Below are positions 421 to 29,974 of a stretch of DNA of 30,162 nucleotides, one piece after another; positions within the stretch are counted from its first letter, which is position 1; each line of letters starts with the position of its first letter. A program made the position numbers and the translations under genes. Source of the stretch: Octopus sinensis (taxonomy: Eukaryota); the NCBI RefSeq assembly GCF_006345805.1, contig NW_021832518.1, positions 1 to 30,162 of the forward strand, given 5' to 3'. The notes beneath the pieces are model-generated. The model worked only from the letters and a program-made list of their open reading frames with translations, was not told the DNA's origin and did not search any database.

Positions 421-1123
421 ACTGGCATTCTGCCAGTTATGTCAACAGGGGTTCCAGTTGGTTTAATCATTGGAACTGTCTCATCAATAGAACTGTCTCA
501 TCAACAGAACTGTCTGATCAACGGAACCGTCTGATAAAATGAATAATCTGATCAACCGAACTGTCTGATCAACGGAACCGTTTGATCAATGGAACCGTCT
601 GATCAATGGAACTGTCTGATCAACGGAACTGTCTGATAAAATGAATCATCTGATCAATGGAACCGTCTGATTAACGGAACTGTCTGATCAATGGAATCAT
701 CTGATCAATGGAACTGTCTGATCAACGGAACCATCTGATCAACCGAACCGTCTGATCAACGGAACTGTCTGATCAATGGAACCGTCTGATCAACGGAACC
801 GTCTGATCAGTGGAACTGTCTGATCAACGGAACTGTCTGATCAATGGAACCATCTGATCAACGGAACTGTCTGATTAACCGAACTGTCTGATCAATGGAA
901 CCGTCTGATCAACGGAACCATCTGATCAACCAAACCGTCTGATCAATGGAACCGTCTGATTATGAAGTTAATGTACAAGTGGCTGGGTACTCCACAGACA
1001 TGCGTACACTTGAAGTAGTTCTCAGGGAGATTCAGCATGACAAAGAATGTGATAAAGCTGGCCCTTCGGATTACAGGTACAACTCGTATTTGCCAGCTGA
1101 GTGGACTGTGGCAAGGTGAAATA
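421..1123 (-). mobile_element. SINE family A body (head-less copy) interrupted by a minisatellite
   Basis: Collinear similarity with 1124-1442, 18110-18490 and 27415-28112 (e.g. AAGTGGCTGRGYACTCCACAGACA, GTAGTTCTCAGGGAGATTCAGC). It abuts a second copy in tandem. Confidence 0.8.
466..960. repeat. 17-bp minisatellite, about 29 copies (ATCAACGGAACTGTCTG)
   Basis: Direct reading of the repeat units. The unit matches the single GATCCGAATCAACGGAACAG segment of SINE A at about 18153-18172. Confidence 0.95.
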
Positions 1124-16450: not shown

Positions 16451-16855
16451 TGAGCGTGTGTGTACGAGTATGTATATGTATGTAAGTCTGTGTTTAATAT
16501 ATATATATATATGTATATGTATATGTATGTAAATCTGTGTTTATAATGTCATCTTCCTCTGTTTCTCTCTCCTCCCTTTCTCTCTCTCTCTCTTTGTCCC
16601 GGTATACATAAGTGTGCGTGCGTGCGTGTGTGAACGTATGTTTCAAAATGCGTATCTGTCGAGTGTCCCAGGAGACAAATTTAAACATCAATATAATGCT
16701 TTAACACAAACTTACTCAGTGACACCTGGTATACGTTCATGTAAATAAACATGTATGTATGTATGTATGTATGTATGTATGTATGTATGTATGTATGCAT
16801 GCATGCATGTGTCTATGTATGTATGTACACACTCACATGTATGTATGTTTGTATG

Positions 16856-17181
16856 AGAGCTCAAAATCTCTCGTGGAAGCGCCATCCAACCAAAATGCAA
16901 ATATATGGGAAACTACCACCTGTGTCATCTCTTGTGAAAGGTAAGAGAGTCCAGTTTGCTGGACATTGTTGTAGAGCTGAAAAAGAGGTAATTTCTACTC
17001 TTCTCCTCTGGAAGCCATCTACTCGCAATGCCAGAGGGCGCACACTCTCCTACCCTGATGTAATCTCCAGGGATACAGGCATCCAGCAACAGGACCTCCG
17101 TAATGCCATGATGGACCGTGAAGTCTGGCGTAGCATGGTAAATTCCATTGTCTCGACCACGGTCGAACAATGATGATGATG
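16856..17181 (+). mobile_element. 5'-truncated RTE/RTE-X-type LINE 3' end with TSD
   Basis: Open frame RAQNLSWKRHPT..IYGKLP..KRVQFAGHCCR..LLWKP..GR..AMMDREVWR, a typical RTE ORF2 C-terminus. (TGA)n tail; direct repeat ATGTTTGTATG at 16845-16855 and 17182-17192. Confidence 0.9.
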
Positions 17182-17282
17182 ATGTTTGTATGTATGTAGT
17201 CAACAAATAAGATCCACAGATTCTCGGTATTAGAAGACATCTAGTAAAAGTCCAAAAGTTTCAAACTAAGACACTGATGTCT

Positions 17283-17444
17283 TTACAGGGGATCAATTCT
17301 ACGGGGTAAAGAATGACTTTACATGGGATCAATTCTACGGGATAAAGAATGGCTTAACATGGGATCAATTCTACGGGATAAAGAATGGCTTAACATGGGA
17401 TCAATTCTACGGGGTAAAGAATGGCTTAACATGGGATCAATTCT
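17283..17444. repeat. 36-bp tandem repeat, 4.5 copies
   Basis: Unit TAACATGGGATCAATTCTACGGGRTAAAGAATGGCT. Confidence 0.95.
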
Positions 17445-28701: not shown

Positions 28702-29384
28702 ATATATATATATATATATAACATCACATATATATAGGCAGTATATATATAGCATATATATTTACTGTAATATATATATACATATATATATACAGTATAT
28801 ATATATGCATATATATATGTATATATATATGTATGTATGTATATATATATATATATATTAGCATGTGTGTGTGGATGGGTTGTGTGTGTGTGTGTGTGTT
28901 GTATACATATACATTTACAAAGGTGATACATTTCACCTTTGCTACTCAGTTTTCCCGCTTAATTTTCACCTGAAAGAAAAGAAAACAACAACATCCAAAA
29001 CAGCTGTTTCACCGATGACATGGACAATAATCAGAACGATACTGACAAGCGCCTCAGCAATAACAACAACAACAACAACAACAACAATTGATGTAACCAC
29101 GACGACGGCAGCAGCATGAGGCACCACTACCACCACCACTACAACCACAGCAATAACAAGCACAAAACAACAATAGGCTCTACAGAAGTTTCTCTGTAGT
29201 TGACACATAAGTTTTGGTAAATAAAGGACGGAGACACATACATAAATACACGCACGCATGCATACACACGGATACATGGACACATACACACATGCATACA
29301 CACACACACATACACACACACACACACACACACGCACACACACACACACAAGTGAGCGCATAAGCTGCAAAATTATCACAGAAC

Positions 29385-29420
29385 TGTTACTCAGAGTTTC
29401 ACGCTCCCGTTCATCAGACA
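29385..29420 (-). ncRNA. Type I hammerhead ribozyme with intact catalytic core
   Basis: Minus strand: UGU-CUGAUGA-ACG(GGAG)CGU-GAAA-CUCUGAG-UA-ACA. Stem I extends via AUCACA/UGUGAU, and a 15-bp perfect inverted repeat (29366-29380/29438-29452) flanks the motif. Predicted cleavage after GUA, between 29388 and 29387. Confidence 0.82.
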
Positions 29421-29476
29421 TTGTGATGAATCAGAGGTGTGATAATTTTGCATCTTTTAATGTATGTATATATATA

Positions 29477-29555
<79 letters not shown>

Positions 29556-29639
29556 ATGTGTATATATATATATAGTTATATTATATATATAAATTTATAT
29601 ACATATAAATATATGTATGTATATATATATATATACATT

Positions 29640-29687
<48 letters not shown>

Positions 29688-29735
29688 GATATATATATAC
29701 TAATATATGTATTATATACATAAAATATATCTCTG

Positions 29736-29772
<37 letters not shown>

Positions 29773-29865
29773 TTATCTATATATATATCTATCTATCTTT
29801 ATTAAACACTAACGTACGCACAAACAGAATACATAACATGCTTATATATATATATATATAATATA

Positions 29866-29906
<41 letters not shown>

Positions 29907-29974
29907 TTATATATATATATATAATATATATATATATATTATATATATATTATATATAGTTATCAGTAATAATA

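What the first reader, a model, noticed from the sequence alone, without database searches (positions are those of the whole stretch)
29366..29452. Intact hammerhead ribozyme hidden between microsatellites (minus strand)
Seen: every conserved core nucleotide is present in the correct topology (C3U4G5A6U7G8A9; 3-bp stem II with a GGAG tetraloop; G12A13A14; A15.1-U16.1; cleavage triplet GUA). Stem I is UGU/ACA, then an internal loop, then AUCACA/UGUGAU, and a perfect 15-bp inverted repeat encloses the whole. Stem III (ACUC-U-GAGU) is almost palindromic with a 1-nt loop. Known: such minimal type I hammerheads with palindromic stem III are typical of Penelope-like elements and animal retrozymes and cleave as dimers. 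Inference: this roughly 110-bp island between (CA)n and (TA)n is a self-cleaving mobile RNA module. The outer 15-bp arm competes with the proximal AUCACA for the same 3' strand, which could act as a conformational switch.
Basis: partly seen in the sequence, partly recalled or inferred. Interest (0 to 1): 0.82.

Follow-up and report, generated by a model that had tools for sequence, protein, structure and literature searches.

The report
Decayed Penelope retrotransposon hammerhead remnant
This is a real hammerhead-ribozyme motif, but it is the short, damaged 3' end of a Penelope-like retrotransposon family with roughly a thousand copies in the genome, and this copy likely no longer cleaves, so it is an ordinary example of a published kind of element.

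Summary
A type I hammerhead lies at 29375-29427 on the minus strand. It is the only descriptor hit in the window, against 1 of 300 shuffles. It is not a stand-alone RNA module. It is the 5'-truncated 3' end of a Hydra-clade Penelope-like element (PLE): 945 exact matches to a family core pattern, and longer copies join this end to RT and GIY-YIG remnants carrying the Hydra CxCX5C linker. The published Hydra-2_aMil hammerhead has the same stem I, stem III arms and cut site. The 15-bp inverted repeat is the usual inverted truncated PLE arm (45 of 70 copies, 18-167 nt), not a switch. The 'intact' core is probably accidental: positions 4-5 read CG 572, TG 155, CA 160, the signature of CpG decay from a non-canonical C4 core. 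This copy also lost a stem I base and 65 nt of its 3' end, and it misfolds in the model. No earlier scan note matched. Verdict: new member of a known kind, low interest.

The parts
29438..29461 (-). Inverted, 5'-truncated second arm of the same PLE 3' end (24 nt, short-end type).
   Evidence: Reverse complement of the family's 3' flank up to the short end; 45 of 70 family copies were called with such an arm, 18-167 nt
29431..29437 (-). 7-nt junction between the inverted arm and the sense copy; origin not resolved
   Evidence: Does not align to natural family copy L029; coordinates
29418..29430 (-). Start of the sense copy (5' truncation at -44 from the cut) and 5' strand of stem I; one C of the family's stem I is missing
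   Evidence: 30 of 70 family copies start between -50 and -40
29411..29417 (-). Core C3-A9, here CUGAUGA; the commonest family form has C at positions 4 and 7
   Evidence: CG 572 / TG 155 / CA 160 of 945 at positions 4-5
29401..29410 (-). Stem II, 3 bp (A-U at 10.1-11.1) with GGAG loop; most family copies have GGAA
29388..29400 (-). G12-A14, palindromic stem III with 1-nt loop, and A17; predicted cut at 29388/29387
   Evidence: same stem III arms and cut-site A as published Hydra-2_aMil and Hydra-2_aJap
29375..29387 (-). 3' strand of stem I (proximal and distal parts)
29352..29374 (-). 3' flank and the last 10 nt of the PLE tail, joined by a 65-nt deletion at 29362/29361 between two near-identical 10-11-nt repeats; the AATAAA-like short end is lost
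   Evidence: Alignment to natural copy L029
29280..29350 (.). (AC)n microsatellite abutting the long 3' end; likely insertion target
   Evidence: long ends of family copies run into (TG)n-rich sequence
29463..29958 (.). (TA)n-rich microsatellite abutting the inverted arm; likely insertion target
   Evidence: 27 of 34 short-end copies are followed by TA-rich sequence; (TA)n is the published Hydra target

Best explanation
The island is the 5'-truncated 3' end of a Hydra-clade Penelope-like retrotransposon, likely inserted into a microsatellite and since decayed, and its hammerhead likely no longer cleaves. Shown: the sequence family, its link to RT and GIY-YIG remnants, the variable inverted arm, two alternative 3' ends about 66 nt apart, symmetric CpG decay, and two deletions in this copy. 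Inferred mechanism: the PLE protein nicks an AT-rich repeat and starts reverse transcription at two sites 3' of the ribozyme on uncut RNA. It makes two cDNAs, one with the tail and one without, that stop early and are joined head to head. That gives the long sense copy and the short inverted arm seen here. In the parent element the ribozyme probably worked as a slow, dimer- or protein-assisted cutter of tandem transcripts. After insertion, CpG deamination likely turned the family's C4 and C7 into U4 and U7, producing a textbook-looking core by chance.
For: Copy number: 558 first-look candidates for the island, 40 scored; 945 exact matches to a 35-place core pattern with a reversed-pattern control of 0 (several related subfamilies pooled). 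Link to a PLE ORF: L199 and L208 carry RT and endonuclease remnants on the same strand, 1.3 and about 2.1 kb upstream of this subfamily's 3' end. They match a young sister ORF mostly at 30-49% identity. That ORF has RWK, DKT, CxCX5C, CxxC and CxH, the Hydra features in PMC8557442 section 11. Published Hydra hammerheads share stem I, stem III and the cut site. Arms: 45 of 70 copies, 18-167 nt, 22 covering the core. In the young sister family 18 of 18 close inverted pairs have exactly one tail, and the window copy fits that rule. Decay: CG 572, TG 155, CA 160 (TG vs CA p=0.82). In the window's own subfamily CG 16, TG 11, CA 12 of 48, like the stem II CpGs. Folding of this copy is unfavourable. 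In a Poseidon PLE the ribozyme needs the protein and is dispensable for insertion in vitro (PMC11167929).
Against: The window holds no PLE ORF (tblastn), so the link rests on other loci. Only 2 of the 12 endonuclease-bearing old loci tested show a clear subfamily-type end at the expected place; L210 and L215 show divergent ends. No phylogeny was built, and Pfam returned nothing for the sister ORF. The young sister family has the canonical U4 core (58 of 59 readable arms), so a small U4 sublineage of the window's subfamily cannot be excluded. ViennaRNA ignores tertiary contacts and also disfavours the young sister's ribozyme (ensemble fraction 1e-4). Cleavage was not measured. About 4 of the 45 arm calls are weak or mismapped and may be spurious.
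Confidence: 0.9

Rival explanations
1. It is a PLE remnant, but this copy still cleaves slowly, in trans with another family transcript or helped by PLE protein, because CpG decay gave it a canonical core.
For: Full canonical core and a palindromic stem III able to form 8 bp with a second molecule. PLE minimal hammerheads cleave weakly as dimers (PMC4209133) and with protein (PMC11167929).
Against: Proximal stem I is cut to 3 bp. The U-rich core pairs with the upstream strand in a 7-bp hairpin with or without the arm (ensemble fraction 5e-11 with, 3e-7 without). No second hammerhead lies in the window.
Confidence: 0.12
2. It is a stand-alone non-autonomous retrozyme or SINE-like hammerhead unit amplified as a roughly 110-160-nt RNA.
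For: Most copies are short, and their 5' ends cluster at -50 to -40 (30 of 70), which resembles a fixed unit length.
Against: 5' ends still range from +7 to -251, and longer copies run into the UTR and ORF. No 150-450-bp tandem units of this family were seen in the loci read. The same clustering occurs in the ORF-bearing sister family.
Confidence: 0.05
3. The outer arm is a selected conformational switch that gates cleavage.
For: The arm does compete for the same 3' strand and forms the lowest-energy helix.
Against: Arms are absent in 25 of 70 copies and vary from 18 to 167 nt. Inverted truncated pLTRs with the tail on one side are a published PLE insertion feature (PMC8557442; PMC3846280). 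The core is misfolded even without the arm.
Confidence: 0.02

Closest known systems
Hydra-clade PLE hammerheads, above all Hydra-2_aMil and Hydra-2_aJap (PMC8557442, File S2)
   Same: Type I fold near the element's 3' end; the same 4-bp proximal stem I in family copies; identical 4-bp stem III arms around a 1-nt loop; cut after A; (TA)n targets; ORF motifs RWK, DKT, CxCX5C in the sister family.
   Different: Stem II is shorter (3 bp, or 2 bp plus A-A in the young sister). The commonest core of the old subfamilies has C4, whereas every Hydra row shown in File S2 has U4. The unit is 3.33 kb against 'generally <3 kb', and the tail is about 66 nt against 30-40 nt. The published Hydra-1_oBim has a different hammerhead, and three family-specific strings were absent from the supplement.
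PLE minimal hammerheads of metazoans (Cervera and de la Pena 2014, PMC4209133)
   Same: Thousands of dispersed single motifs from truncated PLEs; dual motifs close together on opposite strands; palindromic helix III; weak activity.
   Different: This family has a 4-bp palindromic helix III and a short helix II without the usual G10.1-C11.1 pair.
Poseidon element PAc of Anolis (PMC11167929)
   Same: Two RT start sites that define a tail; AT-rich targets; no sign that cut RNA is the template.
   Different: Different clade. In PAc the ORF starts inside the hammerhead; in the young sister here the first ATG of the next unit lies downstream of the tail.
Non-LTR retrozymes (PMC7229834; bioRxiv 10.64898/2026.07.22.740005)
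   Same: Type I hammerhead, PLE-related.
   Different: Those are non-coding 150-450-bp tandem repeats with a ribozyme in each unit; this is a solo truncated end of a coding element.

Membership tests
Type I hammerhead ribozyme | Core CUGANGA, GAA, A15.1-U16.1 and NUH in type I order with three helices | tested here: met
   Single descriptor hit in the window, 1 of 300 shuffles
Type I hammerhead ribozyme | Match to an Rfam hammerhead model | tested here: not met
   No hammerhead family listed at E<=1 in the window or E<=10 in the island
Type I hammerhead ribozyme | Covariation in the helices among homologues | tested here: inconclusive
   0 of 11 core-proximal pairs change on both sides in 15 rows; 93.9% of cells paired. 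By eye, distal stem I shifts from C-G to A-U and from A-U to G-U between subfamilies. Published Hydra rows covary in stem III.
Type I hammerhead ribozyme | Active fold accessible in this copy | tested here: not met
   Hammerhead fold 13.9 kcal/mol above the minimum, stem I and II probabilities 0.0; the model omits tertiary contacts
Type I hammerhead ribozyme | Self-cleavage | not testable with these tools
   Needs an in vitro assay
Hydra-clade Penelope-like element | RT followed by a C-terminal GIY-YIG-type endonuclease upstream of this 3' end | tested here: met
   L199 and L208; absent from the window itself, which is truncated
Hydra-clade Penelope-like element | RWK, DKT, CxCX5C linker, CxxC and CxH; no CCHH in the endonuclease | tested here: met
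   Young sister ORFs (lack of CCHH by eye); CxCX5C also in the L130/L199 remnant; definition
Hydra-clade Penelope-like element | Hammerhead of Hydra architecture near the 3' end | tested here: met
Hydra-clade Penelope-like element | Insertion into (TA)n | tested here: met
   27 of 34 short-end copies followed by TA-rich sequence; young sister ends run into (TA)n
Hydra-clade Penelope-like element | Inverted 5'-truncated copy, tail at one end, partial tandems | tested here: met
   45 of 70 with arm; 18 of 18 pairs with one tail; 3.33-kb tandem units in L217
Hydra-clade Penelope-like element | Placement in the Hydra clade on an RT tree | not tested
   No named reference proteins were held; 1373 unnamed homologues found, the best at 58% identity
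Non-LTR retrozyme | 150-450-bp tandem repeats with a hammerhead in each unit | tested here: not met
   One hammerhead in the window; no such repeat at the site
Non-LTR retrozyme | Non-coding, with no ORF in the full element | tested here: not met
   Longer copies carry ORF remnants
Non-LTR retrozyme | Abundant linear and circular monomer RNA | not testable with these tools
   Needs raw RNA reads or a northern blot

The most novel reading that the evidence does not exclude
These PLE lineages use the hammerhead fold as a structural stop-and-join signal for reverse transcription, not mainly as a nuclease. A lineage with a weakened U4C core still spread to about a thousand copies. cDNAs stop at the base of stem I whichever 3' start was used (30 of 70 old copies at -50 to -40; 23 of 82 young arms at -47 to -38, then almost none until -59), and few start at the cut site. 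Most short insertions would then be ribozyme-sized units set by RNA structure, and the genome would hold a natural U4C versus U4 comparison for testing what PLE hammerheads are for.
Probability: 0.2. Interest if true: 0.55.

Novelty: new member of a known kind. Interest (0 to 1): 0.2.

Why it matters
By itself it matters little. Hammerheads at PLE ends, inverted truncated arms and (TA)n targeting are all published, including for the Hydra clade. Two points are of modest use. First, it is a caution for motif scans: CpG decay can manufacture a perfect CUGAUGA core in dead copies (6 of 48 subfamily copies read CTGANGA), so a canonical core is no evidence of activity. Second, the genome holds an old C4-core lineage and a young U4-core sister with near-intact ORFs and thousands of ends (2218 exact matches). 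That makes the open question of what PLE hammerheads do testable side by side.

Tried and rejected
Rfam scans gave only microsatellite-driven miRNA hits below their gathering scores and no hammerhead. A PLE ORF found 3.3 kb upstream of a family copy in L091 looked like the parent. It was rejected because it has its own different hammerhead and 3' end, with unrelated DNA in between. Pfam found nothing on the Hydra-type ORFs. A test for cut RNA as the template was negative: 1 of 70 old copies and 4 of 82 young arms start within 3 nt of the cut, and most of those are explained by internal deletion or microhomology. Sequencing-run search with the young sister's 3' end: no RNA holder listed. The four runs laid were contigs, which cannot show RNA ends; no conclusion on expression is drawn. 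Pair counting showed no double-sided change in the core-proximal helices. Literature searches for a natural C4 core in PLE hammerheads: 'hammerhead ribozyme' + 'U4C' gave one paper; a search on four C4 core spellings gave nothing relevant among the 20 listed of 197. Searches with 'octopus' or 'cephalopod' rested on my guess from the repeat landscape; the host was not identified. Earlier scan notes: one unrelated bacterial leader by sequence, none by words or place.

Full report
Observation. A descriptor requiring the two core boxes, NUH and three helices finds this one site in the window, with C3 at 29417 and A17 at 29388; 1 of 300 dinucleotide shuffles gave any hit. Rfam lists no hammerhead here. 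The island folds better than its shuffles (z -3.1), but that fold is the inverted repeat plus a hairpin that buries the core, not the hammerhead.

It is a dispersed repeat. The window is G000:C8989:1-30162, in a 2.72-Gb genome. The island gave 558 first-look candidates, of which 40 were scored, yielding 54 matches. A 35-place core pattern with N at the four CpG sites has 945 exact matches and its reversed control has 0. These pool at least three related subfamilies that differ in distal stem I. The window copy belongs to the one I call A. Copies share the hammerhead, then an AATAAA-like short end, then an optional tail of about 65 nt, then microsatellite. Of 70 subfamily A anchors, 36 have the tail and 34 do not. 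The 70 come from 71 of the 73 matches to a 3' pattern; two places were not fetched and one duplicate was dropped.

The parent is a Hydra-clade PLE. Walking upstream led through an AT-rich UTR to L130/L199, where a decayed endonuclease with a CxCX5C linker lies about 1.3 kb before a subfamily A end. L208 shows the same order. Of 12 old endonuclease-bearing loci tested, these 2 have a clear subfamily-type end, L210 and L215 have divergent ends, and the rest show none in the stretch fetched. The same search found a young sister family: 3.33-kb tandem units, a 643-aa open stretch in L216, and a 3' end about 80% identical to subfamily A. Its ORFs carry RWK, DKT, CxCX5C, CxxC and CxH and by eye no CCHH, which is the Hydra definition (PMC8557442 section 11, read in full). 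L199 matches it over RT and endonuclease, mostly at 30-49% identity. The same paper's File S2 (part 2 of the supplement read) lists Hydra-2_aMil and Hydra-2_aJap with the same proximal stem I, stem III arms and cut-site A. Its Hydra-1_oBim has a different ribozyme, and three strings of this family were not found in the supplement. No tree was built.

The 15-bp inverted repeat. It is the first part of a 24-nt inverted copy of the element's own short 3' end. Arms were called in 45 of 70 copies, 18-167 nt long, 22 covering the whole core; about 4 calls are weak or mismapped. In the young sister (2218 exact matches; 82 arms from 70 loci, all on contig C1), 18 of 18 close inverted pairs have one tailed and one untailed arm. 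The window fits this rule: an untailed arm and a tailed sense copy. Inverted 5'-truncated pLTRs, palindromic junctions and a one-sided tail are published (PMC8557442 passages; PMC3846280 passages). The tail as the gap between two RT start sites was shown in vitro for a Poseidon element (PMC11167929, passages and part 2 of the main text). A conserved switch would not vary in this way.

The core is probably canonical by accident. At positions 4-5 the 945 matches read CG 572, TG 155, CA 160, other 58. TG and CA are equal (p=0.82), as expected for deamination of a CpG on either strand, although TG gives the canonical U4 and CA destroys G5. In subfamily A alone, 48 of 70 anchors had the core aligned: CG 16, TG 11, CA 12 at 4-5, and CG 16, TG 12, CA 14 at 7-8, like the two stem II CpGs; 6 of 48 read CTGANGA. 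I infer a source element with C4 and C7, and neutral decay afterwards. U4C is known to lower activity considerably in vitro yet permit viroid infectivity (PMC3088659 passage). Against this reading: the young sister has U4 in 58 of 59 readable arms, so a minor U4 branch of subfamily A is possible.

This copy is damaged. Against natural copy L029 it lacks one stem I base and 65 nt between two near-identical short repeats. Its U-rich core can pair with the upstream strand. The forced hammerhead fold lies 13.9 kcal/mol above the minimum with the arm and 8.9 without it, against 1.0 for L002, 4.9 for L006 and 4.7 for the young sister. These energies omit tertiary contacts, so they rank copies but do not prove inactivity. 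Stem III can pair between two molecules (8 bp, -9.9 kcal/mol), which fits the dimer model and the weak activity reported for PLE minimal hammerheads (PMC4209133, parts 1-2 of 4 read). The window has no second copy.

How it likely works. Both 3' ends lie downstream of the cut, about +40 and +106, so any copy that contains the core was copied from uncut RNA (inference). Only 1 of 70 old copies and 4 of 82 young arms start within 3 nt of the cut. This agrees with the finding that ribozyme mutants of PAc insert normally and that its ribozyme needs the protein. 5' ends cluster instead at the base of stem I: 30 of 70 at -50 to -40, the window copy at -44, and 23 of 82 young arms at -47 to -38, with none between -48 and -58. 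Joints in a public run of unrecorded kind fall at the same place. In the young family many of these junctions centre on a short palindrome at -44, so microhomology can explain part of the peak; a structural stop is untested. I did not see this clustering in the passages read, but the supplements of PMC4209133 and PMC11167929 were not read, and of the 2026 bioRxiv preprint only part 1 of 5 and of PMC7229834 only passages. A C4 core or this clustering could be reported there.

Verdict. It is a decayed solo end of a Hydra-clade PLE, not an intact stand-alone ribozyme with a switch. New member of a known kind; interest 0.2.

Noticed in passing
L216, L217, L218, L220, L221, L223 (for example G000:C8:54558000-54571000): Young Hydra-clade PLE family in 3.33-kb head-to-tail units with near-intact ORFs (643 aa open in L216) and 2218 exact 3'-end matches. 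Its hammerhead has U4 but an A-A mismatch at the base of a 2-bp stem II. Not found in the PMC8557442 supplement by the string tested.
   Followed up: partly
L091:3000-5480 (minus) and L099-L128: A second, very abundant young PLE family (15,652 first-look candidates; open frames up to 789 aa) with a CxxC-type linker, Neptune- or Nematis-like by my reading. Its own hammerhead has the U3-A8 core covariation reported for Schistosoma PLEs.
   Followed up: partly
L294-L363: All 18 close inverted pairs of the young family have exactly one tailed and one untailed arm, and many junctions centre on a short palindrome 44 nt upstream of the cut site.
   Followed up: partly
L201:5454-6713: Open frame holding another Hydra-type endonuclease half (CxCX5C linker), lying next to several subfamily hammerhead ends.
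   Followed up: no
window 472-960: 17-bp tandem repeat, 28.8 copies, 82% matches; origin not examined.
   Followed up: no
window 17277-17444: 36-bp tandem repeat, 4.7 copies, 95% matches.
   Followed up: no
window 16830-17173 (+): Non-repetitive reading frame that resembles the C-terminal end of an RTE-type LINE protein (resemblance recalled, not tested).
   Followed up: no
L094:1884-2939 (minus): 352-aa open frame that looks like a leucine-rich-repeat membrane protein (by eye), about 6 kb from a family copy.
   Followed up: no
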